From: Octopus sinensis | Taxonomy: Eukaryota | DNA length: 64,000 nt | Assembly (NCBI RefSeq): GCF_006345805.1 | Contig: NC_043003.1 | Coordinates: forward strand, 29,264,001 to 29,328,000 | Direction: 5' to 3' | Part shown: positions 3,613 to 64,000 of the stretch, piece by piece | Layout of the letters: each line of letters begins with the position of its first letter | Position numbering within the stretch: position 1 is the first letter of the stretch | Position numbers and translations under genes: made by a program | The notes under the pieces: generated by a model | What the model was told of the DNA's origin: nothing | The model's input: the letters and a program-made list of their open reading frames with translations, nothing else | Database searches by the model: none

Positions 3613-4531
3613 AGCAGATAGCCACGAGTTCACACTGCCTCACAGCCAGATTTTATGAATATCAGACATTATAAATATAATGAGCTCATGTAATTCATTG
3701 TCAGTCTTGCTATGGCAAAGCAGAATTATAAAATTCAGATATTTTACATGAACCTAAAATCTTCACATGATGTTTTGACCTCCCAAAGTTTCATAAGTTA
3801 CACTCACATTTTCCTCTTTGTATTCATTAAAGCCCACTCAGTGTTCGCCTATACTCAATGAGTAACAACCAACACTTCACTTGTATTTATTATTGTGTTT
3901 TGCTTTCTGTTGTTGTCGCTTTGCTTCTTTGTTCCACTTGATTTTAATTAAAATCTTTGAGTCCTCTTCTCTGTCTCTTTCTTCTCAGTCATTTTCTTTT
4001 TCTCCATATTCTTCTTTCCTTCTCTACATTCCTCTTTATCGTCCACTTCGTCTTCTTTCTTCCTTTTTGTCCATCACCACCACGTCTCTCCCTCCATCTC
4101 CTCATTTTTTTCTTCTTAGCTTCTTTTTCTTTACCACCACCTTAGACATAGGCATGGCTTTGTAGTAAGAAGTTTGTTTCTCAACCACATGGTTCTGGGT
4201 TCAGTCCCACTTCATGGCACCTTGGGCGAGTATCTTTTTCTATAGCCCCTGGCCAACCAAAGCCGTGTGATTGGATTTGGTAGATGGGAACTGAAAGAAG
4301 CCCGTCATGTATGCATGTATGTATACTTCAGAAATGTAACCACATGTGGATTGTTGATGATTTTTCCTTATTTCTCCTTTCTCTTTGGATTTTTCTCTTT
4401 CCGACAGAGTTATACTCGAAACAATAAAATCTCTCTCCTTTCACTATATTTCAATATATTTCTTGTGCACGTCCTCACATTCAGTTTTTTCGTTTTTCCT
4501 CTGTCTTTTGTTTGTTTGTTCTTTGAATTGA

Positions 4532-17790: not shown

Positions 17791-18163
17791 GTTGTTCAGT
17801 TTCTGACTCCCAAATTTCCTTACATGGCATTGATTAGCCTGGAGCTATAAGTAGGAGAAAAAGATTCCACACACAGACCAAAACTTTGTGATTGGATTTG
17901 GTAGATGGAAACTAAAAGGAGTGTAGTGGGTGCTTTTCACGTGCCACCTGCACAGGTGCCAGGCGAGGCTGGCATCGGCCACGGTCTGATTGGTGCATTT
18001 TACGTGCCACCGGCACGGAAGCCAGTCGAGGCGGCGCTGGCATCGGCCACGATTCGGATAGTGCTTTTTACGTATCACCAGTCCAGGGGTCCTGGCATCT
18101 GCCGGGTGCCAATCATAGGATTGGTTCAATTTCGATTTATGTATATGTATATATATATATATA

Positions 18164-28655: not shown

Positions 28656-29250
28656 CATCATCATCATCATTTAACGTCCGCTTTCCATGCTAGCATGGGT
28701 TGGACGATTTGACTGAGGACTGGCGAACCAGATGGCTGCACCATGCTCCAATCTAATCTGGCAGAGTTTCTACAGCTGGATGCCCTTCCTAATGCCAACC
28801 ACTCCAAGAGAGTGTAGTGGGTGCTTTTACATGCCACCGGCACAAGGGCCAGTCAGGCGGTACTGGCAACGGCCACGCTCAAATGGTGTTTTTTATGTGC
28901 CACCTGCACAGGAGCCAGTCCAGCGGCACTGGCAACGACTTCACTCGAATGTTTTTTCACATGCCACCGGCACAAGTGCTAGTAAGGCGACGTTGGTAAC
29001 AATCACGCTTGAATGGTGCTTTTTACGTGCCACAGGCACAGAAGCCAGTTAGCTGCTCTGGCAACGATCACACTTGGATGTCACTCTTAGCGCTCTACTA
29101 GCATGGATGCCAGTCATTGAATTTGATTTCAATTTCATTTGCCTCAACAGGTCTTCGCAAGCAGAGTTTAATGTCCAATGAAGGAAAGGTATACATAAGT
29201 GAGCTGGTTACACCCCTGGCATAGGCCACGAGGTTATGGTCTCACTTCTC
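28656..29250 (-). mobile_element. RTE-family 3' UTR with an expanded array of hairpin units
   Basis: (cat)n tail plus repeated ggtgctttttacgtgccaccggcac units. Confidence 0.75.
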
Positions 29251-32153: not shown

Positions 32154-34235
32154 GAAGTAGAGTAGGTTATATATGCTGAGTTTAAGGGTTAGATCTACAT
32201 ACATTATATATAATGTAATGTGTACAGGCATACATATACTCTGAGAAAGAGAGTGTGGTAGGACAGAGGGAGGGAAAGAGAGAGAGAGTGATGTTAAGTT
32301 AACCGTGACCTGAAGTCCAGCCCACTGAAACTGATATGCGTCACTGAGTGTGCACTAACAATTGTGAGATGTGAATGTGTGTGTGTGTGTGTTAGCACAG
32401 GAGCACTTATGCACATGCAAATACACGTCTTTACACATGCACATACACACACATGTATGTCAATTAGAGAAATGCTTAACAAGTATACAGACTCACATGC
32501 ACACACACACACTCATGCACACATACACATTTCTCCCTATGTATGTGTGTGTGTGTAAACATTCATATATATACACACATGCATGCACTATCATGTATAG
32601 AATAAATTATAGCTTTTATTACTCCCTAAGGAACTCCTTGCGATTGAATATAGAACAGGGCCATACACCAGCTTTTCTTTCCCTGTTTCCTTCATTAATA
32701 CATCTAAGAAAGGCCTGAACATCACAATTTCACAATATCTTCCTCAGCATAGTGTCTGTTTAGTGTTAGTTCAGTTTAAAAAACAACTATGCATGCCATG
32801 TACAATTATGGTTATAGCTCCTGGTTCAATCCTACTGTATATCTTCAGTTTGTGTTTTCTACCAAAATCTCAGATCAACCAAACCATGTTAGCAAAATAA
32901 ACTATATGAGAGACCATCAAATGGATTGCTCCTGTTCCTGAGTGGAGGCCTGATTAATCCTTTTATTACCATATTTCTATTGAAATAAATTGTCTTTTAC
33001 GGAGATGTACTTGCATAGCAAGTGATCTGATCTGAGATTGTGTGCTGGAACGAAAACAATTGCAGTGTGGAAGATGTTTATAAGCCATTTAAGAAACACA
33101 CAAAAACTGTTAAATTCACTTCAACATTTAAATTTAATTTCTCCAAATATTTAGTGGAAGGCTTTAATTTTGATCAGTTTAAAACCTGAAGTTTGTATCA
33201 CAGAACCAGGGTTGCTCTCAGATAAGTTAGTATCAGTAATGAAGAATTTAGTAAAAAAAATAACTTTCTTTGTCATTATTAAGCTGGTCTAAGGCAAAAT
33301 GCTTAGCGGCATTTAGTCTGTCTTTATATTCTGAGTTAGAGTTCTTCTGAGGTCGACATTACCTTTCATCCTTTCTCCATATTTACTCTTTCGGACACAT
33401 GATTTAGGAAGTCCATGTTAGCTTTGATGAAACTAGGGAAAATTTGCACAGTAGTTTCAAAATTATGTCAAGCAAATTGCTTAATTGTTGATGTTGTAAC
33501 AGTTGGATATAATTTTAGATCAGATGGTTTGGAAATTTTCCCATATGATGTATGGAAGTCTTTTAAGCTGTTATTGATTTCTTTAGTTATATAGATTTTG
33601 GCAATACATAAAAGATGCTTGTTTTTACTTCAAAATTAATGAGCTAGTCCAACATCTTTTGCGTTAAGTCATTATTTAAGTCGTCTGTTAATTTACTAAT
33701 TGTGTTCATTGTTTCATCATCTTCATTTAACATCCATTTTTCCATGCTTGCATGAGTCAGACAAAATTCGTTGAAGCAGTTTTTCTGTGGCAGGATATTC
33801 TTTCTTATTGTTAACCCTCATCTGTTTCCATGCAAGGTAATATTTCCCCATGCCCAGGAATGTTTTCCACAGAAGATTGGATAGAAACACCACTTATATA
33901 TCAATGACACTCACCTACAACCATCACATGACATCAAGACAAGTGTACACACACGTACACACACACACACACCCGCACACATGCACACACACACACACAC
34001 ACACGTACCTGACATATTTAAAGTGATGCTGCTGCCATCACTGCCCCACCAATGGAGGTGCATTCCTGTTGTATTTTTAGAAATAGCTATATTAATGATT
34101 TAGATCTAACTATTTATTGAGTTCCTTGACAGTAACAAGTCTTCATAAAATTTGAGAGATTTGAATTTTATGAGGTTCTATATTTTGTGACGTCACTGAA
34201 AAGAGTATATATTTACTTATGCATACGTACATATA

Positions 34236-35490
34236 CCGGTATTGGACAAAATAATGGAAACACTTTAAAATTCCAAACAAATTTATTTTAGTATGGGGTA
34301 GTAATTACAGCTTGGATTCTACGAGGTATAGACTCATATAAAGTTTGAATTGTTTCCAAAGGAATTTTTGTCCATTCTTCAGCTAAAACAGTCTCCAGTT
34401 CTTGTAGTGATGATAGTGGAGGATATCGACTTCTTACTTGTTTTTCTAAAATGCACCATAAATGTTCGATCATATTGAGATCAAGGGACTGTGGTGGCCA
34501 GATAAGATGTTCAACTTCACAAGAATGTTCCTCTTGCCATTCAGTAACAACTTTAGCTGTGTGAATTGATCCTTTATCATCTTGAAAGATTGCGTTTCCC
34601 TCCAGAAATAGTTCCGCAACCATAGGATGAATTTGATCAGATAAAATGCTTAAATAGTCTTGACTATTAATTCTGCCATGAAGTGAAAACATTGAGCCGG
34701 CAGATTTCCAAGATATAGCCCTCCAGATCATCACAGATCCTCCTCCATGTTTAACAATTGAAAGAAGGCAGTCTGGGTCAAATGCTTCTTTTGGCTGTCT
34801 TCACACATATACTCAGCCAGTGTTCAGAAATAAGGAAAAGGATGACTCGTCTGAGAAAATAACATTCTTCTATTGCTCTAGGGACCAATTCTGTAGATTT
34901 TTACTCCACACTAAATGCTTTGCAATGGTTGTTTTTGAAAGTAGTGGTTTTCTGATTGAAGCCTTCCCATAAAGTCTGGCTTTGTGCAGCTCCCAGCGAA
35001 TATTTTTTGTGGAAACTGGGTTCTCAAGGTAGTCATTAAGTTCTGCTGTAATTTCAGGAGCTGTGCTTTCATGATCCTTTCTAACAATTCATGTAAGAGT
35101 CCAATGGTCCCTATCTGAAAGTTTTGGTTTTCTTCTGGAGTTTCATTTCAACAAGGTTTTTCCCTCTTTCTCAAAGGCTATCATTATTTACAAGACAGTT
35201 ATTCTTGATACACCAAACATTTCAGCTGTTTTCATTACACCAGTGCCTGCCATATGAGCACCAGCAATTTGACCTCTTTGAAAGTCCAATAGATCTGTCA
35301 TTTTAATGTATTTTAATTGCCTTTTTCTGATGATATCTGAGAAGAAACATCAATTTTAGCAAAACGTATTCAGCAACATTAAAAATAAATCAAATAACAT
35401 AAAAATAAACAAGCTTTTGACGGTTTTATAGATATTTCAAAATTATGATGCTATGATGTTAGGTGTTTCCATTATTTTGTCCAACCCATG
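34236..35490 (-). mobile_element. Full-length degenerate Tc1 (DD34E) transposon
   Basis: ~28-bp TIRs (ttggacaaaataatggaaacac) with TA at both ends; VIFSDESSF, FQDDKGSIH, WPPQSLDLNMIEHLW; 5' part disrupted. Confidence 0.92.
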
Positions 35491-35541
<51 letters not shown>

Positions 35542-35660
35542 ACAATCAAGGAACGGCCATAATAGGCCATTCACCCACTAGAAATAACAGCCAAAGCTTC
35601 AACCGCAAATAAAAGTCAATTCCGTAAACAGGAGAAAATTTAAAAAACATTTACCCTGTA

Positions 35661-35767
35661 ATTTCTTATACGGTGCACCGTTTCGTCTGCTGTTTAATGG
35701 TAAACTAACCTGATTAAATTAAATGAAGCCAATCTTCCATAGGCCCTCAGATTCTTCAGTAAGAAAT
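35661..35767 (-). ncRNA. Type-I hammerhead ribozyme motif, copy 1
   Basis: Reverse complement of 36454-36560 (one loop SNP). Confidence 0.7.
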
Positions 35768-36154
35768 AGCCACAAGTCGGAACAGATATTTACACGAGGC
35801 ATTTCCGACCCTGCCAAGTTAATATCTGACCTAAAATTTTCAAATCATCGCACTCGCGCCAAATTTATCGGCAGCAAATAAATATAAGCCGTCGATTCCA
35901 TTACGGAATTAACCAGAAAATTCATAATTAATCAATATAGGGTGCCAAAAAAAAAATTTTGTAGAATTTTTTTGCCACCAGCGGCCTAGTGGGAAAAAAT
36001 TAAATAGTCATAGACCATTTTTAAGTTCAACATCAACAATCAAGGAACGGCCATAATAGGCCATTCACCCACTAGAAATAACAGCCAAAGCTTCAACCGC
36101 AAATAAAAGTCAATTCCGTAAACAGGAGAAAATTTAAAAAACATTTACCCTGTA

Positions 36155-36261
36155 ATTTCTTATACGGTGCACCGTTTCGTCTGCTGTTTAATGGTAAACT
36201 AACCTGATTAAATTAAATCAAGCCAATCTTCCATAGGCCCTCAGATTCTTCAGTAAGAAAT
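36155..36261 (-). ncRNA. Type-I hammerhead ribozyme motif, copy 2
   Basis: 494 nt from copy 1, same orientation. Confidence 0.7.
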
Positions 36262-36453
36262 AGCCACAAGTCGGAACAGATATTTACACGAGGCATTTCC
36301 GACCCTGCCAAGTTAATATCTGACCTAAAATTTTCAATTTTATTTGCTGCCGATAAATTTGGCGCGAGTGCGATGATTTGAAAATTTTAGGTCAGATATT
36401 AACTTGGCAGGGTCGGAAATGCCTCGTGTAAATATCTGTTCCGACTTGTGGCT

Positions 36454-36560
36454 ATTTCTTACTGAAGAATCTGAGGGCCTATGGAAGATTGGCTTGATTT
36501 AATTTAATCAGGTTAGTTTACCATTAAACAGCAGACGAAACGGTGCACCGTATAAGAAAT
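36454..36560 (+). ncRNA. Type-I hammerhead ribozyme motif, copy 3
   Basis: atttctta-CTGAAGA-atctg...cagac-GAAA-cggtgcaccg-TA-taagaaat; 8-bp stem I, palindromic stem III. Confidence 0.75.
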
Positions 36561-36854
36561 TACAGGGTAAATGTTTTTTAAATTTTCTCCTGTTTACGGA
36601 ATTGACTTTTATTTGCGGTTGAAGCTTTGGCTGTTATTTCTAGTGGGTGAATGGCCTATTATGGCCGTTCCTTGATTGTTGATGTTGAACTTAAAAATGG
36701 TCTATGACTATTTAATTTTTTCCCACTAGGCCGCTGGTGGCAAAAAAATTCTACAAAATTTTTTTTTGGCACCCTATATTGATTAATTATATATATATAT
36801 ATATATTATATTATATTATATTATATTATATTATATATATGTATGCATGTATGT

Positions 36855-37053: not shown

Positions 37054-37242
37054 GAAGAAAAGAAAAAAGGATTTAAAAATCCAGTCAAACATCAATAAAG
37101 CCCTTGGTTTTAAACAAATTTGGTTAATAAATGCAAGTAGAATACACGTCTAAAGTCATTTCTCATGTATGACAAGTAGATCCAAATATCATTTAGAAGA
37201 ATTTCAAGAAATTCAGTGTTTTAGACAACAAAAATGCGGTTA

Positions 37243-37721
37243 GAGAAAATCACATTTTTAATTGTTGAATTCAGCATACAAAGCTGACAATAGCTTCTGT
37301 TGTATCAACATATTTAGATACAGAAAATATCATTCAAATTAGTATATCCGGATATACATGCTAACACAATGTTTTCAAGGTGATCCAAAATTAGATAAAT
37401 ACAAAGTGAACTAAGAAAATATTTCCAGTACACAAACACCAACAAAAGAATGTTAAGAAGAAATATAGTCTAAGAGTTGAAATCGAAAATAGCTTTTCTT
37501 AGATTATGTTTCTGCTCATCATTCTTTTTGTATGCATTTGTGTACTGGAGATAAGTCCACTTTGAATTGAATTAATTTTGGATTGCCTTGAAGATGTGTT
37601 AACATGTATTTTCAGATACATTATCTATATCTAACTATATCTATATCTAAATATACTGATGCAACAGAAACGATTGTCAGCTTTGTATGGTGAATTCAAC
37701 AATTAAAGATGTGATTTTCTC
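37243..37721. repeat. Old ~480-bp imperfect palindrome (fold-back)
   Basis: 37243-37320 pairs with 37644-37721, 37376-37400 with 37571-37592, and 37425-37475 with 37497-37549. Confidence 0.8.
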
Positions 37722-38799
37722 CATCTCTGTTTTTGTTTTATGTACATATATATATGTATATAAATTAGAGAAAAAACGCTACTATGTAATTCAAACAATG
37801 ATAGACATAAACCATATCATACAGAAAAAGTAAAATATATGATAAAACATATATCTAGATCACAAAAATTACTTAATAGTGGTTTTTCTCTAATTTATAT
37901 ATATTATATATTTATATTGTGAAATTTGATTTAATACTAAATTGAATTTTTTCCTGTAAGTTTGGAGTTATACTCCCTAATATTATTATTATTACTATTA
38001 TTATTATTATTATTATTATTATTATCATTATACACACACACACACACATATATATATGTAAAGATAGATAGATAGAGAGAGAGATTGATAGATACACACA
38101 CACACACACTGGATAAATTAAAATTGCATTTCATTTTTGTCCTTGATAAAGCTTTGAGCTGCACCATGAGTGCAGTGCATTTGCAGAAATTCATTTGTGT
38201 CCCAGTATGAAAAATGTATCAGCATCACCATCATCATTGCCATTGCCCTGGTCATTATTTTAATGTCAAAATGGTTCCGTGGTAGTATGGAATCAGAATT
38301 TCTCAAAGCAGGTTTTTTATATGGCTGATTGCCCTTCCTGTTGTCAACCCTCATCTGTTTGCAAGTAATGTAATATTTCCCCTTGTTCAGACTTCTCTTG
38401 AAGAATTTTTTTTATCCAGAGCACTGCCTTGAAGAATTTTTAGTTGAATGAATCAACCCTAGAACTTATTAATTTGTGTTTTTTTAAGCCTGGTACTTAT
38501 TCTATCAGTTTTTTTATTTTTTTTTTGCTGAATCCCTATGTTACAGGAATGTAAACTAACCAACATTGGTCGTCAAGCAGTGGTGGGAGACAAACACACA
38601 CACGCATACACACATGATGGGCTTCTTTCAATTTCTGTCTACCAAATTCACTCACAAGATTTTTGGTCAGCCCAAGGTTATAATAGAAGACACTTGCCCG
38701 AGGTGACTCAATGGGATTGAACCCAAAATCATGTGGTTGGAAAGCAAGCTTCTTATCACACAGCCACACATGCACCTATATCTATCTAACACATTCCTA

Positions 38800-40120
38800 A
38801 CTCCAGCTGCTGTAATCAACTCATCGAGTTTCTTGAGGACGTTACCCAAATCACTGATCGCGGATCCTGGGTGGATGTTGTTTACCTTGACTTTGCTAAG
38901 GCTTTTAACTCTGTGCCACACAAAAGACTTATGGTGAAGCTTTCTGCGTTGGGTGTAAGAGACGAACTCTATAACTGGTTGAAGTCCTTTATTTTCGGCC
39001 GAAAAGAGGTTGTCACAGTTCTAGGACAGCACTCTTCGCCCTATGAGATGACATCTGGTGTACCACAGGGATCTGTTCTTGGCCCCCTTTTATTTGTTGC
39101 ATATGTTAATGACATAGATGCCAACTTAAAGAATGCCACAGTGCTGAAATATGCAGATGACATCAAGCTGTACCTCGAAATAAAGAGGTCAAATCCTGTA
39201 CACTATAGATCCCTATTGCAAGCAGACCTGGACACAATGCAGCAGTGGATCATGGACTGGCAACTCAAGCTGGCTGTGGGCAAATGTACCACCATGCATT
39301 TTGGGAGGAGAAACCCAGCGTCCATCTACTCCCTCCACAACACTAGTCTCAAAAAGTCTTCATGTGAACGTGACCTGGGTGTTATTGTCGACAGTGATTT
39401 GCGTTGGACATAACACATCGCTAAAATTGTCAAGAAGGCTGAGGGTGCCTTGGCATCACTCACCAAATCCTTTGTGAGCCGCTCTCTGGCTATCTATCTG
39501 CGGCTTTATATAGCTATGGTAAGACCTCGCCTGGAATTTGCATCACCAGTCTGGAACCCCTATCTTGCCCAGGATATCAATCGTCTGGAAGCCGTTCAGC
39601 GACGTGCAACCAAAAGAATACCCTCCATCAGGCATTTGCCATATCCTGAACGCCTTACTTCCCTGGGCATGGACACATTGAAACTCCGACGTCTGGCAGC
39701 TGACTTGGCAGACACCCATAAAATTATCAACCATCGTACAAACAATAACTCTGAGCACCTTTTCAAACTCCACCCATCTAACACCCATGGACATATTTAC
39801 AAAGTCAGAAAACAGCATAGCTCCCATGACTTCAGGAAACATTTTTTCATGCTGAGAGTTGCTGAAGCGTGGAACAAACTGCCGGCATCAGTTGTTAGTT
39901 GTCGGAGCACTGCATCCTTCAAAACTTCCATGCTTTCTGAGATTCGCCAACACTACACCTGATTTTCTCCCCTCCATACACACACAAGCATGTATCTGAC
40001 TCATACATTGTTCGCTTTCCAAACATTTCTACATTACTGCATGTACTTTATATGCACTTTCTGACAAGTTGTGGTGCACCTGAGCACTGTATACAATAAT
40101 TTCATTATTATTATTATTAT
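38800..40120 (+). mobile_element. 5'-truncated CR1-type LINE (RT and C-terminus, one in-frame stop at 39411-39413), (ATT)n tail
   Basis: VVYLDFAKAFNSVPH, SGVPQGSVLGPLLF, KYADDIKLY, ERDLGVIVD, VRPRLEFASPVWNPY, LEAVQRRATK, HFFMLRVAEAWNKLP. Confidence 0.92.
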
Positions 40121-40193: not shown

Positions 40194-40456
40194 ATGGTTT
40201 GTTTCAGCATTACAATGCTGGCAGCAATGAATGAAGACAATGCTGTGTTATCGGGTCGTAACCTTATCATTGACGAGAGTAGTTTTGAGGAGAACTTCTT
40301 GCGGTGCATGATTTGTCGGGAGAAATTCAGCAAACAAGAACACCTACCAAAATTTCTACAATGCAATCACACTTTCTGCTTGCTGTGTTTGAAAAATGTT
40401 CTTAAACATGCTAATAACAACAGCCAAACCTTAAGACCTGATAAAAATATCCTTAG
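40194..40456 (+). CDS. TRIM-like E3 ligase, first coding exon (N-terminal part of C3HC4 RING)
   Basis: Acceptor at 40165, CMIC...LPKFLQCNHTFCLLC, GTAAGT donor at 40457, phase 2; the start ATG could be a few codons downstream. Confidence 0.88.
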
Positions 40457-42346
40457 GTAAGTATGTCTCTTAATTTCATCTTTTTTAATTCTTTCATTTC
40501 ATTTAGTTTCCCTTTTTTTTTTTTTTCTTAACTTCTGAAGTTGTAGAAGACATCTTCCCCAGGTGCCATGTGGTTGGATTGAACCTGAGACCACATGGTT
40601 GAGAAGCAACTTCTCAACCATTTAGCTATGCCTGTGTGTGTAATCTAAATTTAAATATTCTCATTCTCTTTTCCTTTCTGTCTGACTGTTTCTGTCTCTG
40701 TCTCTCTTTCTCTCTTCTCTCTCTCCCTCTTGCTTTTGTCATTATCATTAACAACTTAGTATCCACTGTGCCGTCAGGTTAGAATAAATTTGTTGAGGTA
40801 GATTTTCTACAGCAAAGATGCTCTTCCTGTTGCCAACCCTTGCCTGTTTCCAAGCAAAGTAATATTTCCTATGACAAGACATGTTTTTCATGGATGACTG
40901 GAAATAAACAGTGTTGCTAGTCTGACAGTGATGTTCGTTTACAGCCATCATATGTGTACAAGTGTATACACAGACACATGCATACGCAACAGACTTCTTT
41001 CAGTTTCTATCTGCCATATTTACTAACAAGTGCTTTACTCACCTGGTGCTTTAGTGGACGAATGTTTTCAAAGTATCATGCAGTAGGACTGAACATGAGA
41101 CCACAAGGTTGTGAAGCAAGCTTCTTAACCATACAACCATGCCTCAGCTCAAAAACCAACCAAAGTTGACAAGACTCTCTGATTGCCCATTTGAGTGGGT
41201 TGGTAAAATACACTCCAGTATCAGTTACTCTTTTACTTGTTTCAGTCATGTGACTGCAGCCATGCTGGAGCACCACCTTTAGTTGAGCAAATCGACCCCA
41301 GAGCTTATTCTTTGTAAGCCTAGTACTTATTCTATCGGCCTTTTTCGCCGAACTGCTAAGTTACGGGGACATAAACACACTAGCATCAGTTGTCAAGCGA
41401 TGCTGGGGTGACAAACACAGATACACACACACACATATATATACATATACATATATACGACGGGCTTCTTTCAGTTTCCATCTACCAAATCCACTCACAA
41501 GGCTTTGGTCGGCCCGAGGCTATAGTAATAGACACTTGCCCAAGGTGCCACGCAGCAGGACTGAAGCCAGAACCATATGGTTGGTAAGCAAGCTACTTAC
41601 CACACAGCCACTCCTGCGCCTATATATAGTCATAAATGACAGATAAAAATTTAGATGAATCTTTATTTAATAATAAAAAATCCAAATATCATAACAAATT
41701 TGTTTCATAACTCAAAAAACATGTAAATAACTTATATTATCATATTTAATAATAAATAAATTAATTACGTCTGCACTAGCACAAAATGTAAAAAAATTCT
41801 TTCAAAATAATGCAGAAATTGAGCTATGCCATCAGATGAAATAGATTTTATGTTAAATGTAAATCTCAGTGTAATGAAATATGAACACTGTGTTAAAATT
41901 TTTAAAGGTTATTGAAGACAATAATGGCAGAATTAACATGAATTAATAAAAGGAATTTCTAATAAATTGAAGGGAATTTTAGTAATATAATTAAAATATA
42001 AATATTGTATAATCATTATCAGTATGTAAATAAGTTTGAAATATGAATTATTATTATAATAAAGGTGATTCAATTGACTGTATATATAAATAAATGCATA
42101 TACTTATATAGACATATATACACATATAGTCAAATGTATATAGACACACACACATATATATATATATAACAATTACAATATACACCACATTCACAGTACA
42201 CTCACACAGCAACTTACACACACATGGATGTACAACACAATATACAATACAGACACATTTACACACAGCATACAACATATATGCACAAGAGCTTCATAAT
42301 AATATTGAGGTGGTGGTGGCATAGGTGGTGTCAACAGCGACAGTAG

Positions 42347-42418
<72 letters not shown>

Positions 42419-43630
42419 TGATGCTTTTTTTTTTCTACTCTGGCTTTGAACATCCCCTGTTATTGATTTTGACAGGGTGGCTACAGCAAGAGAGGGGAGG
42501 GTGCTATTGTCTGATCACATCACATTAAATACCATTGCCACCCTCAGTAGAAATATCACAGGGTTAGGGGTGAGGCATATAACTGTAATGTGCCACCATG
42601 GTACCAGTGAAATGCCATAGAAACTCCTGTAAATGTTAATGAAAGTGGTGATGATGAGGATGATTACGATGATGATGATTACAATGATGATGATTGTGAT
42701 TACGATGATGATGGTGGTGGTGGTGGTGGTGGAAGTAGGAATCATGGTAATGATGATGAGGAGGAGAATGTTGAAATGTTTATTGTAGTATTAGATGATG
42801 GAATGATGATAGATGTGATGATAAAATGTCATGGAAACCCATTATTGTTAGCAATAATGATGATGGTGGTAGTGGTGATGATTGTTACTGGTGGTGGTGT
42901 TGGTGGTAACAGTAGTGATGGGGGTGGAAGTAGCGCTTCTTCCTCTTCTGTTTCTATAAGACATTACGCATAACACAAGAACACAAGAAACGTTGTCCAG
43001 TCAACACTGACCAATCCACTTCCACCATTGATGTTTCTATTCATAAGCAAGGTCAGCAGCTTCCCTAAAATTGAACATTACATCTGACCAGAACCTCAAG
43101 ACTTGGGAAAATGTAGGTTTTGTGGCAAAATGCGGGCGACACAATAGGACTGTGTAGGCTTATACCTGTGGTTCGAAAAGATTTTGAAAAGATGGCCACT
43201 GACCTATACAACCATGTGCTCATTTTGCACAGCCATACATACACCTACACAGTTATGCCTGTTCCTGCCCCATGCAACCATGCCTGCTACATCACATCTG
43301 CTTTTATTCTTTTTGTTTTATTCTTTTATGTGTTTCAGTCATTTGATTGTAGCCGTGCTGGAGCACCACCATAAAGGTTTTTTAGTCAAAGAAATCAGTG
43401 CCAGGACTTATTATTTGTAAGCCTAGTACTCATTCTATCAGTCTCTTTTGCCAAACCGCTAATTTACAGGGGCGTAAACACACCAAAATTGGTTGTCAAA
43501 CAATAGTGGGAGGACAAACTCAGACACACATAAATATATATGTATGTATGTTTGTTTGTTTGTTTGTTTGTTTGTATGTATGTATGTATGTATGTATGTA
43601 TGTATGTATGTATATATATATATATATATA

Positions 43631-43868
43631 CATATACGTTTAAATATTTGTTGTGCAAGATTTTTTATGTGAAGTCGTGTGTTGAAACAGATATTGTTAT
43701 ATTTCGGAATGGTCATATTGCCAGTTTAGCCAATAAACTGAAGCAAAATAACACCAAATATATAGTGCGTGTGTTTTTATTGGCTAAACTGGCAATATGA
43801 CCATTCCGAAATATAACAATATATACATATATATATATATATATAATATATATATATATATTATATAT

Positions 43869-43911
<43 letters not shown>

Positions 43912-43995
43912 TATATATTTAAACTATTTATTCCCATGCTGGCCACTAGATAAGATCGATATTTAAATATCGATATTATCCTTATTTATAAATTC

Positions 43996-44027
<32 letters not shown>

Positions 44028-44240
44028 CGTTTAAATATTTGTTGTGCAAGATTTTTTATGTGAAGTCGTGTGTTGAAACAGATATTGTTATATTTCGGAA
44101 TGGTCATATTGCCAGTTTAGCCAATAAACTGAAGCAAAATAACACCAAATATATAGTGCGTGTGTTTTTATTGGCTAAACTGGCAATATGACCATTCCGA
44201 AATATAACAATATATACATATATATATATATATATTATAT

Positions 44241-44273
<33 letters not shown>

Positions 44274-44350
44274 TTAAACTATTTATTCCCATGCTGGCCA
44301 CTAGATAAGATCGATATTTAAATATCGATATTATCCTTATTTATAAATTC
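43631..44350. repeat. Two tandem copies of a (TA)n-embedded unit with a perfect 47-bp-arm hairpin
   Basis: Units 43631-43995 and 44022-44350 are identical apart from their TA tracts; arms 43691-43737 / 43776-43822. Confidence 0.9.
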
Positions 44351-44570
44351 ATATATATATATATACACACACACACACAACAGGCTTCTTTCAGTTTCTT
44401 TCTACCAAATCCACTCACAATGCTTTGGTCAGCTCAAGGCTATAATAGAAAACACTTGCCCAAAGTGCCACGCAGTGGGACTGAACCTTGAACCATGTGG
44501 TTGGGAAGATGTTACATGTAGAATAATATTCTAGTGTGTTTTCATTTTCATTTTCATTTTTGTTGACCAG

Positions 44571-44870
44571 GTGTCCAACTTGCAGAAAGGAGACATGTTT
44601 GCCATACCATTCAGTTGATTCCTTACCAACTGACCACAGAATCATCCAAATGATGGACTTTCTGTCTGTGCAACAGACAGATCTTAGGTTGAAGAGTCAG
44701 TGTATGAAACATGGTAACCAACCAGTGTACTTTTTCTGCAGCAAGTGCAGACTTCCAGTATGCCAAGACTGTACCATTTTTGACCATAATGAACAAGATG
44801 GTCATATCATTACAGACTTAAAAACTGAGTTGGAGAGTAGCGCAGAACGTTTCACAGAAATTGGTAAACG
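44571..44870 (+). CDS. TRIM-like gene exon (RING end CPTC plus B-box 2)
   Basis: gaccAG acceptor, phase 2-2, CPTCRK..VDSLPTD..CMKHGNQPVYFFCSKCRLPVCQDCTIFDH...GH; GTACGT donor. Confidence 0.9.
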
Positions 44871-47406
44871 GTACGTAAACTTTTATATTTGTTCTTTCAA
44901 CTTTAAATCCTCTTGTTGTCCTTTAACTTCAGATCAGCCCTGATTGAATAAATTTATGATGAATGTCAGTCCAGATGTGACCATCCTGTCTTTTATCTTT
45001 TCATATTTAGATCGAGTATACAGCAGATAGCACTCTTGAATATATCATCTTTTTAAGAGTGTCATATGAAGGAAGGATTAGCTGCTATTTCTAGCAGATT
45101 GTGTTCCACATAGAAGCTTCGTCATTAGCTTGTTGTTGCTTAGCCTCAAGTCAGCTTCGATTGTGATGACCTATGTCCAAAGACGTTTTTGTGACTATCT
45201 CATATTTTTGGTTGACAAAGTGTATTTAGGACTACATTATGAACACAGCCTTGTTTTTAAGATAGTTAGATATGAAGGATATTTGTTTACTATTTCTTGC
45301 AGGTAAAGTGACCATGTAGAGATTTCCTTCTTGGCGTGATATTTCATTGTTTTTCTTTCCTTTAAGTGAGGGCCACAACATATATTTCTTTACTACACAC
45401 AAGGGGCTAAACATAGAGGGCGACAAACAAGGACAGACAAAGGGATTAAGTCGATTACATCGACTCCAGTGCAAAACTGGTACTTTATTTATCGACCCCG
45501 AAAGGATGAAAGGCAAAGTTGACCTCGGCGGAATTTAAACACAGAACATAACAACAGACGAAATACCACTAAGCATTACGTCCAGCATGCTAACATTTCT
45601 GCCAGCTTGCTGCCTTATTTGTTTCAGTCATTTGACTGTGGCCATGCTGGAACACCACCTTTAGTCGAACAAATCGACCCCAGGGCCACAACATAATGAG
45701 TGAAAATTGTCAAACTAAACCGAGCAGAGTTGTGCACCTTACTAAGGGGTTTTAACTTAAGACACAACTGTTTCGTATTTAGACACATGACCAATAATGT
45801 TTGAAAGCAGGATGTTGGTTAATTCCATCAACCCCAGTACTTAATTGGTACTTCATTTTATAAACCTTGTAGGGATGAAAGACACAGTTGACCTTCATGG
45901 AATTTGAACTTGCAATGTAGGGAACTGAAAGAAATACTGCAAGGTGTTTTCTAACATCATCAACATTACTTAGCCCTTTTGTTGCTATATTTCTGTTGAA
46001 ATACACTGCTTTTGTTTCAATTAATTTTTTAAATAATGAAGAATTTAGTAAAAGAGATATCTTTGTCATTACTAAGCTGATGTTTGAAACATATTAATCC
46101 TTTCTACTAAAGGCACGTGGCCTGAAATTTTGGGGGGAGGGGCTAAGTTGACTACATTGACTCCAGTGCATAACTGGTATTTAATTTATCAACTCCAAAA
46201 GACGAAAGGCAAAGTTGACCTCAGTGGAATTTGAACTCAGAATCTAATAACAGATGAAATGCCACTAAGCATTTTGCCCAATGTGCTAACAATTCTGCTA
46301 GCTCACCACCTGAAATGTTGATAGAAGATTTTCATTTAGATTATAGAAAGAACAGCAGATCCAGGTAGGTTGATATCAGAAGGGTCTGTTTTCCATGTCA
46401 GCATGGGTTAAGTGTTTTGATTTGGTCTAAAGAGTCAGAGGGCTGTGTCATGTTCCAATGGTATGGTTTCCATTGTTGGATGCCCTTCCTAATGTCAACC
46501 ATTTTACAAAATGTCCTGGGTATTTTTTCCCACGGCACCACCTCTAGTGAGGTCACAACATAACTTGCAAGACTAATGAACCCCTCGACTAAATGGGAAT
46601 ATAGCTGAGAGGGAGACAGATTTAAGCTAGGTGCTGATAAGTGGAAGTATGATAGAAGAGACCAGAACAGGTTTGTTGCTGTGGAAAAGATACATGGTCA
46701 CCTGATATAATATATAGGAGGGTGAGTGTAATTGGGGTATAGCTGGAAAGAGAGATAAAGATAGTAAGAATGAGATTTTGAAGCATCAAGAGCATCAGAT
46801 GGTACCATCACATTTCCAACAAAGAACTGCATGCATCAGTCCACAGCCTCCCACCTCATAGCTATCCATTGGCTGAGCTGATACAGACTTTTATTATAGC
46901 TAAAGATATTTTTGAGATGTAGACATGAAATGGTATAGGTATGAAATGAATTCATATTGCTATAGATGCAATGATGTCACAGTGCAACAATATTTAATTC
47001 TAGTTTGTCTCATTTTATGTACCTGAAGACCAGGTAATGAGTCTTCTGAAGAAAAGAGACTTGTACAAGACTAAGAGTCTATTCAGCAGAAAGGTTATTG
47101 TCTTCACAATCCTTCTGTGCATGATGAGATTGGTGGGGTAAATGTTCATCAGTTGCAATTCAACAGATGCAAGAAAATATTGGCAGGGAGGGAATTTCAG
47201 AGGGATGACATTCTGAAGAAGAAGGATTGAGAAGAATAGTAAATGAGAACTTTTTAATAGCACATTCATGTCTGCATGGAATGAAGAAGCTAGGAATAAT
47301 TATGCATTTTCTTTTCTAAGTGTTTATGTTTATTATATATGTGGGTTTGTGGTTTAGCTCCTTGTTCTAGAGGTGCTTTTCATAGAGTCTTTGTTTGTGT
47401 TTCTAG

Positions 47407-48047
47407 GTGCCAAGAATGCATCAAGTCTGCACGAGAGATGATAAATGGACACACAACAGCTTCCAAGAGACTTGATGTCATTGAGAAGCAGATTAAGTGT
47501 ATCATAAAGGAAACCTTCATCGAGTACCGTCTACTGCTTGAGAAAAGGGAAAAAGCACTTGCAGAAAAGGCCACTGAGATGATACGAGAGCAGAAGTCCA
47601 AAAAAGACAGTAGGTTTGAAGAGCCAGATTTGACTGAAGATTCTTTAGAGCGCCACAAGAGGTCCTTTCCAAAAGTCAGAAGGGGGTCGAATGATATGTT
47701 TCGTTTTTTCAACATTGAAAAGGAAATTGATAGCATCATCAAAAAAGATGAAGCAACAGACAGCGATGACACAGATGATAAACACTCACAGACCACAAGT
47801 CTGGAGAGATACAATGAGGTGCAACTCACCGATGAACTGAATAGTCTTGACCAGGTTATTATGCAGTTGGATCCAACTCTGAAGAATCCATTGCATACGA
47901 TGGAACCACCAAGAGCAAGCAAATTCGAAGACAGAGGTGTTGTCACATATCCTGCGAGGGATGCTGAAAGTGGAGAACATCTGAACATGACTATGAAAGA
48001 GAAGCTGGAATCTTATGAAAATTGGATCAGCCAAGCTGCAACATTGG
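47407..48047 (+). CDS. TRIM-like gene exon (coiled coil and acidic region)
   Basis: ttctAG acceptor, phase 2-1, IKETFIEYRLLLEKREKALAEK coiled coil; GTAAGT donor at 48048. Confidence 0.85.
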
Positions 48048-48092
48048 GTAAGTCGCTTTTCCCTTCTTTGAATGGCAGAATGGTTAAGTTAA

Positions 48093-48312
48093 CCCTTTAG
48101 TATTTAAACTGGTAATATTTGACCAAAATATTCTACCCGTTTTGTGTTCAAACCAGCCAAACCTGACCTCTCACACTTACCCTACCATGCCATTCTAAAA
48201 ATAAACAATCACATCATCAAAATTTCACAGCTATAAGAGAATGCATGATTAATAAAAAACAATTTGAATAAATAAGCTTCACATTTGACAAAGTAATCTG
48301 AATGTTAAAGGG
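48093..48312. mobile_element. piggyBac-type MITE
   Basis: TTAA|ccctttag...ttaaaggg|TTAA termini; related copies at ~14548 and ~24895-25110. Confidence 0.7.
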
Positions 48313-49289
48313 TTAAAAAGTTTGATACCTGTGGAATACTCAGCCAGTTCACATGCTAATTCAATGAATGGGTTATCCACTTCATCAAACAAATGAATTT
48401 TCATGAAGTTGAATTTGACTCAAAAGTTCATCATGGTATTTCATCATATGTATTTCTTTGTTTAATGTGACTAGGGACGGGGTGTTGATTGGAAGGAGAC
48501 TTAGCTGCCATTTATTGCAACTTGTTTACATAGAAGCTTCCTCATTGATTCACATGAAATGGAATGTGTGTCAAATGTAGGTGATTATTTTCACTTAGCA
48601 TTCATTAATGATGATTAAGTGGAGGCGCATGGCCTAGTAGTTAGAGCAGCGGACTCACAGTTGAGGGATCGCGGGTTCAAATCTCAGACTGGGCAATGTG
48701 TGTGTTTATGAGCGAAACATCTAAGCTCCACACGGCTCTGGCATAAAGGTAATGGCGAACCTCTGCTGACTCTTTCACCACAACTTTCTCTCACTCTTTC
48801 CTCCTGCATCTTGCAGCTCACCTGCAACAGACCGGTGTCCCATCCAGGTGGGGAACCTATGTGCCAAGGAAACCGAGAAACCAGGCTTGGTTCAAGAAGG
48901 AACAAACAATGATGATTAACCTGAAGTAGCAAATTAGACATGTAGTCGGTTATGTTTAGATGTGATAATCATCTTCATTATCATCATTCCTATCATCATC
49001 ACTACCACCACCACCATCATCATCACTATCATCACCGTCATCATCATCACCACCACCACATTATCATCACATCATCATCATCATTATCACTGCCACCACC
49101 ACCATAAGCAGTAGCAGCAGAAACATTATCAGTAGTATTCAGTAATTATCAGCGAAGGATTCTTTTAGTTAATCCTGGTCATTGGATGTCTGTTATATCC
49201 AAACAATGTAAAATGTATCATAAATTTGTTGTTGGCATCCTTTTGTCTCAGGAGACAATGGAGTTGTGCATAAACTAATCCAGTCTGGT

Positions 49290-49650
49290 TTTTTCATTTC
49301 ATGTCCTCTCCAGTTTTGCACAGGCTTGGGCTAGATATAAGAAAATACTGGGTAGCCCAATCGTCAGGATTCCTCTCTCGACCTTGCTGACGTAGTCGAA
49401 AGGAATGCAGAGCATTACGTTTGGCACCAGCTTGATTGCAGGAGCTGCCGGAAGAGTGTTGAGTCGAACACTAAACCGCCTACAGGGCTCCACTCCAGAT
49501 TTCTTTGAAGGTTGTCTCCTTTCTGTAACCCTGGACAGGGGCCCATACTGGGTACTGTTAGCCGGAGCCAGCTGAGCCCGAGACTTGTGTCAGGCAGGTC
49601 GTCAGTCCCTGAGGTAGCGAAGAAAATCGCTCGCTACCCACTACCTGTAT
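49290..49650 (-). mobile_element. GC-rich isolated fragment resembling a non-LTR (RTE-type) 5' UTR
   Basis: CpG-rich and structured; recalled resemblance to RTE leaders; no ORF follows. Confidence 0.4.
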
Positions 49651-49925
49651 CAAAAATACCATAAACCAAAAGCCTATTAGTTAGGCACACATTTTTATTT
49701 TAAATAAGAAACTTCAGCAAGCCAATAAACGAGCATTCTTGTGTATGATCGCTACATACTGTATGAACAACGGGGGTGTTTTAATGCAACTACTCAGCCT
49801 GCTAGAAATAAAATTTTACATATTCCTTGATACGTTTGTTTCGTTTATTTTTATATTTGTGTTTATTCAGCCTTGAAATGCTTCAATATTCTATTTTTGC
49901 ATCTATTTTGTTTCCAATATTACAG

Positions 49926-49993
49926 AACGTCGGCGAACTTTGTTAACGTCGGTGAAACAAGACAACAGGCAGCAGCAAGGGGAGGTAATCTAA
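49926..49993 (+). CDS. Probable terminal coding exon of TRIM-like gene
   Basis: ttttgtttccaatattacAG acceptor, phase 1, ERRRTLLTSVKQDNRQQQGEVI*. Confidence 0.5.
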
Positions 49994-60860: not shown

Positions 60861-62642
60861 CTACAGTCCCTCACTGGTGTGAATTTTTGCATGTTTAGAC
60901 AAATCAGCATTTTGTGAGAATGCCTCACCACAGATATCACAGCAATATGGTTTCTCACCTGTATGAATATGTTTATGCCTATTTAAATGGCTACTTAAAG
61001 AGAATGCTTTACTGCAGATATCACACTGGTATGGTTTCTCACCTGTGTGAATGCGTTTATGGCAAGATAAATGACCAGTCTGAGAGAATGTTTTACCACA
61101 GATATCACAGTGGTATGGTTTCTCTCCTGTGTGAATACGTCTGTGGCAAGATAAAGCACTTCTTTGAAAGAATGCCTTACCACAGATATCACAAGAATAT
61201 GATTTCTCACCTGCATGTCGGCGTTTATGTTTGTTTAACAAACTATTCTGCGAAAAAGTTTTATCACATATATCACAGTGGAATGGCTTCTCTCCTGTAT
61301 GATTACTTACATGATATAGTAAGGATGTCCTTTCAGAAAACTGTTTACCACAGATATCACAAGAATGTAGCTTCTCACCTGTATGAATACGTTTGTGGCG
61401 AGATAAATTGCTACGTTGCGAGAATTTTTCACCACAGATATCACAGTCGTAGGGTTTTTCACCTGTGTGAATACGTTTGTGGCAAGACAAAGTGCCCATT
61501 TGAGAGAATGTCTTACCACAAATATCACAAGAATGTAGCTTCTCACCTGTATGAATACGTTTGTGGCGAGATAAATTGCTGCATTGCGAGAATTTTTCAC
61601 CACAGATATCACAGTCGTAGGGTTTTTCACCAGTATGAATACGTTTGTGGCAAGACAAAGTGCCCATTTGAGAGAATGTCTCACCACAGATATCACAAGA
61701 ATATGATTTCCCACCTGTTTCACTTTGTTGATCTTTATTTAACAAAGTTTTCTGAGAGTAAGTTTCACCATTGATTTCACAGTGGGTTGGTTTCTCACCT
61801 GTATGAGTACTTAAATGGTAATGTAAAGAAGTTCTCTGAGAGAAAGCTTTACCACAGCTATTACAAGAGTATGGCTTCTCACCTGTGTGAGTACGAATAT
61901 GGTTAGATAATCGCCTTCTTTCAAAGAATGATTTACCACAGGTCTCACAATAAAATGGCTTCTCACCTGTATGAACACTTTTATGATAACGTAAAGAATT
62001 ACTCTGAGAGAATGTTTTTCCACAGATATCACAGTGGAATGGCTTCTCAACTGCATGAATATATTCATGCTGGGATAAGGCATTACGTGCAGAAAACGCT
62101 TTGTTACAGGTTTTACACTGGAATGGTTTTTCACCTGTGTGAATACGTTTGTGTTTAGATAAAGCACTACTTTCAGGAAATGCTTTATCACAAAGCTCAC
62201 AGTGGAATGGTTTCTCTCCTGTATGAACACTTTTATGGTAAAGTAAAGTATGTCTTTGAGAGAATGTTTTACCACAAATATCGCAGCAGTATGGTTTCTC
62301 ACCTGTGTGAGTACGTTTGTGACACGATAAATTACCAATCTGAGAGAATGTCTTACCACAGATATTGCAGGTGTATGGTTTCTCACCTGTGTGAGTACGA
62401 ATATGGGTAGATAATTGTCCCCTTTCTAAGAATGCTTTACCACAGATATCACATTGGTGTTGCTTCTTCTCCATATGAATTAGTTTATGTCGAACTGAAT
62501 TTTTTTTCCTTGCAAATACCTTCCCACATACATTACAAGGATATGACTTTTTTCCTGTCTTTCCCTGAGTCTGTTGCAATATATCATTATCACAAGGTTG
62601 TGTTTCATCACAAACCTGACTTAAACACAGCTTCTCATCCAT
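60861..62642 (-). CDS. Tandem C2H2 (Kruppel-type) zinc-finger protein, 593 aa, 19 intact fingers plus 1 degenerate
   Basis: Uninterrupted ORF of CxxC-x12-HxxxH repeats with TGEKPY linkers; no KRAB/BTB domain; candidate upstream acceptors near 62739 and 63132. Confidence 0.96.
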
Positions 62643-64000
62643 AATTTCTTCTGTTAGTCACACAACAATGCAAAAACATGTTCCTCTTTTTCCTTGTAAT
62701 TTATAATAAAGACAGTTCCATTGTTAGTCTGAATAAATCTGAAAATATGTAACTGGAAAGAAATTCTATTACAACACATTTGGATAGAATCAAGTCCCAG
62801 GAATCAATCTAGGAATGAGAAAGCATCACATAAAAGATCCCAAAACCTGCTCCAGTTCTCTCAATATCCAACTATGAAAACCATTTCACATGATGAGTTG
62901 TGGTAAATTTTCTAGTATATTCAACATACAAATTCATCCAGTAAGCATTTCCAGTTTTACAGAAAATATCTGAAGTTAATATTGATTCAGAGAAACATTT
63001 CCCAGTAATTTAATCATCAACATTATACTTATATAGTGACATGTGTTCTTGATGATGCAAATTTTCAGTCTTTAAACTCAAATTTCTTGATGTATCTTGA
63101 GAGAAATTTTCATCTTTATGTCACCAGACACCCTGAAACACACAGATAATATACATAAAACACAGTTACATGTAAATGCAAAAGATACCAAAGACAAATA
63201 TCTTGGTCAAAATGCACAGTAAACCAAAATATAAACATTACCATAAATTAATAGTACAGACATGCCAAAATTAATGATGAGAACTTTCTCTAAGTATCTT
63301 TAGAAGAAAGACTGGGTAAGGAAAGGTCAAATGGACATAAATTCATAGCCTTTGTAAATCTTCCAAGAATTTGATTCAGTTGAATTCACAAGAGTTACAA
63401 ATCTCAGAATAAAGTTTGCATTAAAATGTTCAGTGAAGAGATTTACTGTAAAAACTATGAATGATCAAGGGAAGTAAGTTAGATGAATTGAGTGGAATTC
63501 AAACACAGATACTTTGGATGTTAGATGTAGAAGGGAAGAGGAAGAATATAGCATGTTTGTGCTTGTAGTGTCTTTTGTGAAGTGACCTTTTGCCAATATG
63601 TCAGATGGCCACTTTCAGGAGTGAGATTTGCAATGTGTAATGGCTTCTCTGCCCATGTTTTTGATTAGCACTGTAATGTGCCTTGGATTATGGCTAGGAC
63701 CACTCTGTCTTTTTCTTCTGTTATTTAATGTCTGTTATTCAATGTGTGATACATTTGACTACAATTTCTTTAACTAAGATGGTATAGAAATTAATTAAAC
63801 AGTAATTCAGTATAATTAATACTTATTCGGCAGTTTGAGTAAAAATGATTTCTCATTTAAGCATAAGGCCAAAATTTTAAAATATAGTGGTTTAGTCAAT
63901 TATGTTAACCAAGTTCTTGAATGGTATTTTTTTTCTATATCTATCCTGAAAGGATCATATGCAAAATTGACTGCAGAGGAATTTGAACTCAGAATGTAAC

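What the first reader, a model, noticed from the sequence alone, without database searches (positions are those of the whole stretch)
35538..36790. Young non-coding element with three hammerhead ribozymes in a tandem + inverted arrangement (retrozyme / Penelope pLTR-like)
Seen: a 494-bp unit, a 306-bp partial tandem copy and a ~450-bp inverted copy, nearly identical, inserted in (TA)n. Each has a type-I hammerhead: 8-bp stem I (atttctta/taagaaat), CUGAAGA and GAAA cores, a palindromic stem III (CGGUGCACCG) and a GUA cleavage triplet. The inverted copy reads across the unit junction, which implies a multimeric or circular template. Known: Penelope-like element pseudo-LTRs and non-LTR retrozymes carry such hammerheads, and palindromic stem III favours dimeric cleavage. 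Inference: the two minus-strand ribozymes 494 nt apart would excise a 494-nt monomer that could circularise, i.e. a possibly undescribed cephalopod retrozyme family. Atypical points are a ~58-nt loop II and an A-C mismatch at the first pair of stem II.
Basis: partly seen in the sequence, partly recalled or inferred. Interest (0 to 1): 0.85.

Follow-up and report, generated by a model that had tools for sequence, protein, structure and literature searches.

The report
Octopus hammerhead retrozyme, Penelope-style insertion
This is a very recent insertion of an abundant, non-coding 494-base octopus repeat that carries a predicted self-cutting hammerhead RNA, and its layout suggests it was copied into place by a Penelope-type jumping gene, a kind of element already known from other animals.

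Summary
An Octopus genome carries a 494-bp unit, a 306-bp partial tandem copy and a 453-bp inverted copy between TA-rich microsatellites. Each copy has a type I hammerhead. Its unconstrained fold is the hammerhead, and the tandem transcript folds as a double hammerhead.

Both 'atypical' points dissolve. The '58-nt loop II' is a long stem II. The A·C mismatch is an A-U pair in 42-100% of family depth.

Public contigs show a very large family (15,429 and 7,276 contigs in two genome-sized runs), head-to-tail joints in 4 of 4 runs, and the same end joined to (TA)n in 3 of 4.

Partial tandem, a 5'-truncated inverted copy and a (TA)n target are the published Penelope-like (PLE) insertion footprint. 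Best reading: a non-autonomous PLE-mobilised non-LTR retrozyme, inserted in one event from an uncleaved multimer or a circle.

Not shown: cleavage, expression, circles, the partner PLE, or independent reads across the inversion. My searches found no description in cephalopods. It is a new member of a known kind.

The parts
35538..36031 (-). Unit A: full 494-bp monomer; RNA sense is the minus strand and its 3' end (A1, 35538) abuts (TA)n
   Evidence: the same end joined to (TA)n in contigs of X2 (12), X15 (1) and X17 (1)
36032..36337 (-). Unit B: 5'-truncated head-to-tail copy (A1-306), one difference from A
36338..36790 (+). Unit C: inverted 5'-truncated copy (A345->A1->A494->A387), joined 5'-to-5' with B; its 3' end lies 108 nt beyond the A1 end
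35661..35767 (-). Type I hammerhead of A (stem I 35760-35767/35661-35668; CUGAAGA 35759-35753; GAAA 35684-35681; predicted cut after 35669); a private SNP at 35725 breaks one pair of the stem II hairpin
36155..36261 (-). Type I hammerhead of B (predicted cut after 36163)
36454..36560 (+). Type I hammerhead of C (predicted cut after 36552)
35669..36162 (-). 494-nt cut-to-cut monomer that double cleavage would release; predicted fold -135.7 kcal/mol against -114.6 +/- 7.2 for 40 shuffles; the hammerhead fold persists when it is folded as a circle
   Evidence: prediction only
35543..35581 (-). Predicted hairpin just upstream of the recurrent 3' end (8-bp core plus extension); candidate recognition site for the mobilising reverse transcriptase (inference)
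35491..35539 (.). Left target microsatellite (TA)n, at the end of a Tc1-like DNA transposon
   Evidence: (I4)
36782..36840 (.). Right flank microsatellite (TA)n/(ATTAT)n; no target-site duplication can be read

Best explanation
This is one very recent insertion of a high-copy, non-coding 494-bp Octopus repeat with a type I hammerhead motif in every unit, likely a non-LTR retrozyme copied into a TA microsatellite by the reverse transcriptase-endonuclease of an unidentified Penelope-like element.

Shown: the anatomy, the absence of coding capacity, a large family with head-to-tail units, a recurrent 3' end on (TA)n, and pair-keeping variation in the hammerhead stems.

Inferred steps: (1) Tandem source loci are transcribed on the hammerhead strand. 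(2) A PLE protein cuts both strands of an AT-rich target and primes reverse transcription from both, starting inside the RNA at two sites (A1 and, 108 nt further on, A387). (3) The two cDNAs (800 and 453 nt) stop early and are joined 5'-to-5', which gives tandem plus inverted copies with both 3' ends facing outwards. (4) The template was longer than a cut monomer: an uncleaved multimer (about 55%) or a circle read by rolling reverse transcription (about 45%). (5) The ribozymes would cleave mainly as a double hammerhead in tandem transcripts, releasing 494-nt monomers that a host ligase could close.
For: Layout equals the published PLE footprint of partial tandem plus an adjacent inverted 5'-truncated copy and microsatellite targets. 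The Repbase entry Penelope-13_HM has the same inverted copy and a (TA)n target. PAc cleaves and extends both strands and initiates internally at two sites. The longest stop-free stretch in six frames is 52 aa; GC is 36%.

laid 4 of the 24 listed runs: 15,429, 7,276, 29 and 125 contigs; all 30 bins covered in all four; the 494-nt 'goes back' joint in 4 of 4; the share running on into unlike sequence was 0, 0, 0.05 and 0; (TA)n loose ends at the A1 end in 3 of 4. All three copies share letters that are a minority in the family (35673, 35792, 35819; 35945 in A and C), which points to one template and one event.

Of 14 listed variant sites in the hammerhead, 10 are at paired or mismatch-closing positions and 9 of these 10 keep or create a pair alone. 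The tenth (G10.5>A) pairs if it rides with C11.5>U, whose share is higher or about equal in X1, X2 and X17, and both are near zero in X15. N7 is the only core position that varies. The 800-nt B+A transcript folds as a double hammerhead: stem III duplex -22.7 against hairpin -2.9 kcal/mol. Octopus genomes hold PLEs that target (TA)n.
Against: No autonomous partner was found. Hydra-1_Obim's ends and hammerhead differ by eye, and 11 short motifs from the unit gave one chance hit in that paper's supplement.

The two 3' ends are 108 nt apart, not the 30-40 nt 'tail' of PLEs, and the A387 end is not among the 23 of 169 loose-end rows shown. No strand-change joint was listed, so this inversion is not independently confirmed.

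The conservation statistics are weak. No variant at 12 core sites has P = 0.21. Pair-keeping has P = 0.038 under a transition-only null, and 0.09 after dropping the two reversions of this copy's own mismatches. Variants are unphased, and the C11.1>U site is a CpG. The predicted outer 6-bp extension of stem I is hit by common 1-2-nt deletions (35771-35776; 14-24% of depth in the genome-sized runs, 94% in X15).

G10.1-C11.1, called highly conserved in PLE hammerheads, is absent. In Xenopus 8 of 9 predicted retrozyme dimers did not cleave in vitro. Rfam does not recognise the motif.
Confidence: 0.8

Rival explanations
1. The 494-bp unit is only the 3' end or pLTR of an abundant autonomous PLE, and this locus is an ordinary 5'-truncated insertion or rare gutted by-product.
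For: PLE insertions are mostly 5'-truncated and tandem or inverted. Contigs are short (60-130 nt), so an exit into an ORF could hide among the 146 loose-end rows not shown.
Against: The unit joins head-to-tail to itself here and in 4 of 4 runs. Summed depth does not fall at the junction. The share running on into unlike sequence is 0 in both genome-sized runs. No coding remnant over 52 aa.
Confidence: 0.1
2. The element is PLE-mobilised, but the hammerhead no longer cleaves in this lineage or needs the PLE protein; no circle is made and the motif is a passenger.
For: A10.1·C11.1 mismatch in this copy. PAc HHR cleaved only with protein and was not needed for insertion. 8 of 9 Xenopus dimers were inactive. 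The cDNA here ran through cleavage sites. This rival is compatible with most of the best explanation and differs only in step 5.
Against: Intact core, 8-bp stem I, 4-bp stem III, stable fold and pair-keeping variation. Active or predicted natural hammerheads tolerate a mismatch at the base of stem II: axolotl HHR_Amex2 and many Hydra-clade entries read as U·U (my reading of that table).
Confidence: 0.3
3. The inverted copy is an assembly or library fold-back artefact.
For: No contig with this strand change was listed. Such structures trouble assemblies.
Against: C is not a mirror of its neighbour: it starts 39 nt further on than B ends, stops at a different point and continues into unrelated flank (best mirror alignment score 22, background level). 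It would need two chimeric joints. Contigs drop rare junctions.
Confidence: 0.05
4. It is a non-autonomous Helentron-type (rolling-circle DNA) element with sub-terminal inverted repeats and a 3' hairpin; the family features are recalled, not from a call.
For: An exact 8-bp inverted repeat near both unit ends (35574/35986), a hairpin before the 3' end, and tandem arrays.
Against: 8-bp inverted repeats occur in 85% of shuffles, and in terminal position in 7%. No fixed 5' end at this locus. It does not explain the hammerhead, the 5'-to-5' inversion or the (TA)n target.
Confidence: 0.04

Closest known systems
Metazoan non-LTR retrozymes (Cervera & de la Pena 2020, PMC7229834; Li, Clavereau & Pollet 2026, 10.64898/2026.07.22.740005)
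   Same: Short non-coding low-GC tandem units, one type I hammerhead per unit, a self-paired monomer that keeps the ribozyme fold, high copy number; a molluscan precedent in Mytilus (350-390 bp, about 5000 motifs).
   Different: 494 nt is above the 170-400 nt of the 2020 paper, though inside the 51-972 bp of the 2026 preprint. Stem II is 68 nt rather than about 4 bp with a small loop. Circles and expression are not shown. Neither paper's text that I read describes a cephalopod family or an inverted-copy integration footprint.
Penelope-like element insertions and pLTR hammerheads (PMC8557442; PMC4209133; PMC11167929)
   Same: Partial tandem, adjacent inverted 5'-truncated copy, microsatellite target without a readable TSD, fixed 3' end about 130 nt after the hammerhead, palindromic stem III, two different 3' ends.
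   Different: No RT or GIY-YIG ORF. The end offset is 108 nt, not 30-40. The hammerhead is larger than the minimal motif. 10.1-11.1 is A·C or A-U, not G-C.
Hydra-clade PLEs, including Hydra-1_Obim of Octopus bimaculoides (PMC8557442 supplement)
   Same: (TA)n target, type I hammerhead near the 3' end with a 3-4-bp palindromic stem III, same host genus.
   Different: No visible sequence similarity of ends or ribozyme, so it is at most a candidate class of partner.
Non-autonomous Chlamys PLEs such as MRC1 (PMC8557442)
   Same: Non-coding PLE passengers with pLTRs and multicopy head-to-tail insertions.
   Different: Green algal; Chlamys elements mostly lack canonical hammerheads; they share 3' ends with known autonomous families.

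Membership tests
Type I hammerhead ribozyme | Core CUGANGA ... GAAA ... UH intact | tested here: met
   CUGAAGA, GAAA and GUA in 3 of 3 copies; no listed variant at 12 core sites, N7 varies (P = 0.21 by chance)
Type I hammerhead ribozyme | Three helices around the core, helix I open-ended | tested here: met
   The unconstrained MFE and centroid have this topology
Type I hammerhead ribozyme | G10.1-C11.1 pair closing stem II | tested here: not met
   A·C here; A-U in 42, 62, 99 and 100% of depth in X1, X2, X15 and X17; no listed G10.1 variant
Type I hammerhead ribozyme | Helix I-helix II tertiary contacts | tested here: inconclusive
   A 3-nt bulge and outer helix are predicted in stem I, but that stretch carries common deletions; no canonical small loop 2
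Type I hammerhead ribozyme | Match to an Rfam hammerhead model | tested here: not met
   None among 20 matches at E <= 5; the 68-nt stem II is the likely cause (inference)
Type I hammerhead ribozyme | Self-cleavage | not testable with these tools
   Needs an in vitro assay or raw RNA reads; only contigs were available
Non-LTR retrozyme | At least two consecutive tandem units, each with a complete type I hammerhead | tested here: met
   A and B; head-to-tail joint in 4 of 4 runs
Non-LTR retrozyme | Non-coding, GC under 50% | tested here: met
   Longest open stretch 52 aa; GC 36%
Non-LTR retrozyme | Monomer of a few hundred bases | tested here: met
   494 nt: inside 51-972 bp, above 170-400 nt
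Non-LTR retrozyme | Expressed as linear and circular monomers | not testable with these tools
   No run on record as RNA, and contigs cannot tell a circle from tandem DNA
Penelope-like element insertion footprint | Partial tandem with an adjacent inverted 5'-truncated copy | tested here: met
   Present in the assembly; the junction was not seen in independent contigs
Penelope-like element insertion footprint | Microsatellite target and fixed 3' end | tested here: met
   (TA)n at the A1 end here and in X2, X15 and X17
Penelope-like element insertion footprint | 30-40-bp tail on one end | tested here: not met
   The two ends differ by 108 nt
Autonomous Penelope-like element | ORF with RT and GIY-YIG domains | tested here: not met
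   None in the unit; the two RT remnants in the window lie at 4.2 and 38.8 kb, and no GIY-YIG domain was found in the 8 ORFs scanned
Non-autonomous PLE derivative | Sequence homology to the pLTR of an autonomous PLE in the same genome | tested here: inconclusive
   No genome held; only one paper's consensus set was checked, by short motifs and by eye
Helentron-type non-autonomous element (features recalled) | Sub-terminal inverted repeats with fixed 5' and 3' ends | tested here: not met
   The 8-bp repeat is near chance level; both 5' ends at this locus are truncated

The most novel reading that the evidence does not exclude
An actively spreading, very high-copy octopus circular-RNA parasite: a 494-nt circle with a long-stem-II hammerhead variant that Rfam misses, read by rolling reverse transcription from both strands of a PLE-cut (TA)n target. 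Its many young insertions would be a direct record of how animal retrozymes are mobilised, a step so far argued from co-occurrence and pLTR trees.
Probability: 0.3. Interest if true: 0.7.

Novelty: new member of a known kind. Interest (0 to 1): 0.47.

Why it matters
Animal retrozymes are proposed to ride on Penelope-like elements, but the 2026 preprint rests this on co-occurrence and pLTR phylogeny and says it has limited evidence for the life cycle. Here a purely non-coding retrozyme-type unit carries most of the PLE integration footprint at a very young insertion, in a family large enough for a census. That makes three questions testable: circle or multimer as template, which PLE supplies the enzyme, and whether ribozyme activity is selected. 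It also adds a sizeable repeat family to octopus genomes, and a hammerhead form with a long stem II that a standard Rfam search misses.

Tried and rejected
Genome census: no whole genome is held, so copy number, phased alignments and a link to a PLE ORF could not be done.

Rfam: only microRNA-like matches caused by the inversion and the TA repeats, all below gathering score.

Metagenome pattern scan: 2 hits (L001, L002), both rejected as chance because stem I has only 1 pair and they lie in bacterial-looking DNA. Viral contigs: 0 hits.

Expression: no RNA holder listed on record. X15 and X17 are only guessed to be RNA and are contigs, so nothing is concluded on expression, strand or ends. Summed contig depth (1.3-4.3 million over most bins in X1) is not a copy number. 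No strand-change joint was listed, which shows no absence.

Intron idea: a donor-like site just after the cut and an acceptor-like site past the junction; no matching skip in X15 or X17, so dropped. Pol III A and B boxes: none, and 11 runs of four or more T on the sense strand. Hydra-1_Obim, Naiad_Obim and Naiad_Ovul as partners: no motif match; FASTA line breaks could hide a motif.

Literature searches for an octopus retrozyme or hammerhead showed none in their listings. Repbase and Dfam could not be searched, the supplement of PMC7229834 could not be read, and bioRxiv supplements are closed; any of these could hold the family. Lunse et al. 2017 is not held. Earlier scan notes by sequence, by place and by the first word set were empty.

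Full report
Host and setting. A protein encoded in the window matches an Octopus bimaculoides TRIM59-like protein at 95-99% over four exons (40194-49990), so the host is an Octopus species. The element lies about 3.4 kb upstream of the first coding exon, in a TA microsatellite at the end of a Tc1-like DNA transposon. No whole genome is held.

Observation. Unit A is 35538-36031 (494 bp). B (36032-36337) repeats its first 306 bp with one difference. C (36338-36790) is inverted and equals A387-494 plus A1-345. On the hammerhead strand the left arm reads 800 nt towards 35538 and the right arm 453 nt towards 36790. Both 3' ends face outwards onto TA-rich DNA and the two truncated 5' ends meet in the middle. 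The flanks are not mirror images. The longest stop-free stretch is 52 aa.

The ribozyme. Each copy has an intact type I core. The unconstrained minimum-energy fold is the hammerhead itself: stem I 8 bp, stem III 4 bp with a UGCA loop, and a 68-nt extended stem II with a 14-bp hairpin (z = -2.8). A generic scan finds these three motifs and nothing else in the window, and none in 5 shuffles. The 800-nt B+A transcript folds as a double hammerhead through the 12-nt palindrome. Rfam does not list it. All of this is prediction; cleavage was not measured.

The family. One search listed 24 runs, 20 holding part of the unit, from 11 studies and five coded organism labels. I laid 4 of them on one permuted monomer (contigs only). 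X1 and X2 gave 15,429 and 7,276 contigs, most at 95% identity or better. The two runs guessed to be RNA gave 29 and 125. A copy number in the thousands or more is my inference; the tool gives none. The head-to-tail joint appears in 4 of 4 runs, so tandems exist as DNA and are no evidence of circles. Loose ends of (TA)n sit at the A1 end in X2, X15 and X17; 23 of 169 loose-end rows were shown. No contig class leaves the unit into long foreign sequence in the genome-sized runs.

Variation in the hammerhead. Of 38 variant sites shown (4 rows not shown), 14 fall in the hammerhead. C11.1>U makes an A-U pair at the base of stem II (42, 62, 99 and 100% of depth). A stem III G-C becomes G·U (91-100%) and keeps both the monomer and dimer folds. 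G10.5-C11.5 appears to alternate with A-U. N7 is the only core letter that varies. The SNP in copy A is private. In total 9 of 10 changes at paired sites keep or make a pair, P = 0.038 under a transition-only null and 0.09 without the two reversions. Core invariance alone has P = 0.21. The variants are unphased, one lies in a CpG, and the predicted outer extension of stem I carries common deletions. This is suggestive of selection on the fold, not proof.

One event. The three copies share letters that only 9-26% of X1 depth carries, so they come from one template. One SNP and one homopolymer slip across about 1.25 kb make the insertion very young (inference).

Mechanism. Craig et al. (PMC8557442; passages, section 11, supplement parts 2, 52 and 53 and searches) describe PLE insertions as partial tandems, often with an inverted 5'-truncated copy at the 5' end, and (TA)n targets for Naiad and Hydra. 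Frangieh et al. (PMC11167929; parts 1-2 of 4) show a PLE protein cutting and extending both strands of AT-rich DNA, starting inside the RNA at two sites, with unprocessed RNA as the main substrate. Priming from both strands and joining the truncated products would give the layout seen here (inference). A cut linear monomer cannot be the template, since the left cDNA would end 131 nt from A1. A multimer or a circle is required, and this locus does not tell them apart. The 108-nt offset between the ends does not match the 30-40-nt tail.

Comparison. Cervera and de la Pena (PMC7229834; parts 1-4 of 6; supplement unreadable) define non-LTR retrozymes and name PLEs as candidate mobilisers. Li et al. 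(10.64898/2026.07.22.740005; parts 1-3 of 5; supplements closed) tie them to pLTRs and found only 1 of 9 dimers active. PMC4209133 (parts 1-2 of 4) and PMC6765202 (passages) cover pLTR hammerheads and dimers. PMC8967140 (passages) reports Penelope expansions in octopus. The element meets the sequence definition of a non-LTR retrozyme and most of the PLE footprint. It fails G10.1-C11.1, the tail length and the Rfam match, and it is not an autonomous PLE. The one octopus PLE with a listed hammerhead, Hydra-1_Obim, shows no likeness by eye.

Novelty and verdict. Five literature searches showed no octopus retrozyme, but repeat libraries and some supplements were out of reach. Earlier scan notes report similar PLE-type minis in other genomes; they are unchecked leads and I used them only to frame the truncated-end rival. 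The finding is real and well supported as a new member of a known kind, with value as a test system. Interest 0.47.

Noticed in passing
window 34206-35520: Tc1-like DNA transposon with terminal inverted repeats (34206-34263 / 35463-35520) and a DDE_3 remnant at 34291-34800 (-); its TA end is the target of the element.
   Followed up: partly
window 40194-49990: Four coding exons of a TRIM59-like RING/B-box gene on the + strand.
   Followed up: partly
window 60861-62657: 598-aa C2H2 zinc-finger array on the - strand.
   Followed up: no
window 4246-5958 and 38790-39962: Two broken LINE-type reverse transcriptase ORFs; the first is followed by a PHD-like finger.
   Followed up: no
window 37227-37737: Inverted repeat of 98 bp at 86%, 315 bp apart: a MITE-like element just right of the finding.
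   Followed up: no
window 35685 (runs X15, X17): The A-U form of the stem II closing pair is 99-100% of depth in the two runs guessed to be RNA, against 42-62% in the genome-sized runs. Only 3 contigs each, different samples, RNA status unproven: a lead that transcribed copies favour the paired form.
   Followed up: no
window 35543-35581 and 36715-36750: Both 3' ends of the insertion lie downstream of predicted hairpins; possible recognition sites for the reverse transcriptase.
   Followed up: partly
window 35803-35821: A cluster of variant sites and loose ends points to a diverged subfamily with a different or deleted segment upstream of the hammerhead; one X15 contig runs on for 230 nt there.
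   Followed up: no
window 28825-29071: 66-bp tandem repeat, 3.8 copies, with related sequence near 5870-6241 and 17845-18100: probably a dispersed octopus repeat.
   Followed up: no
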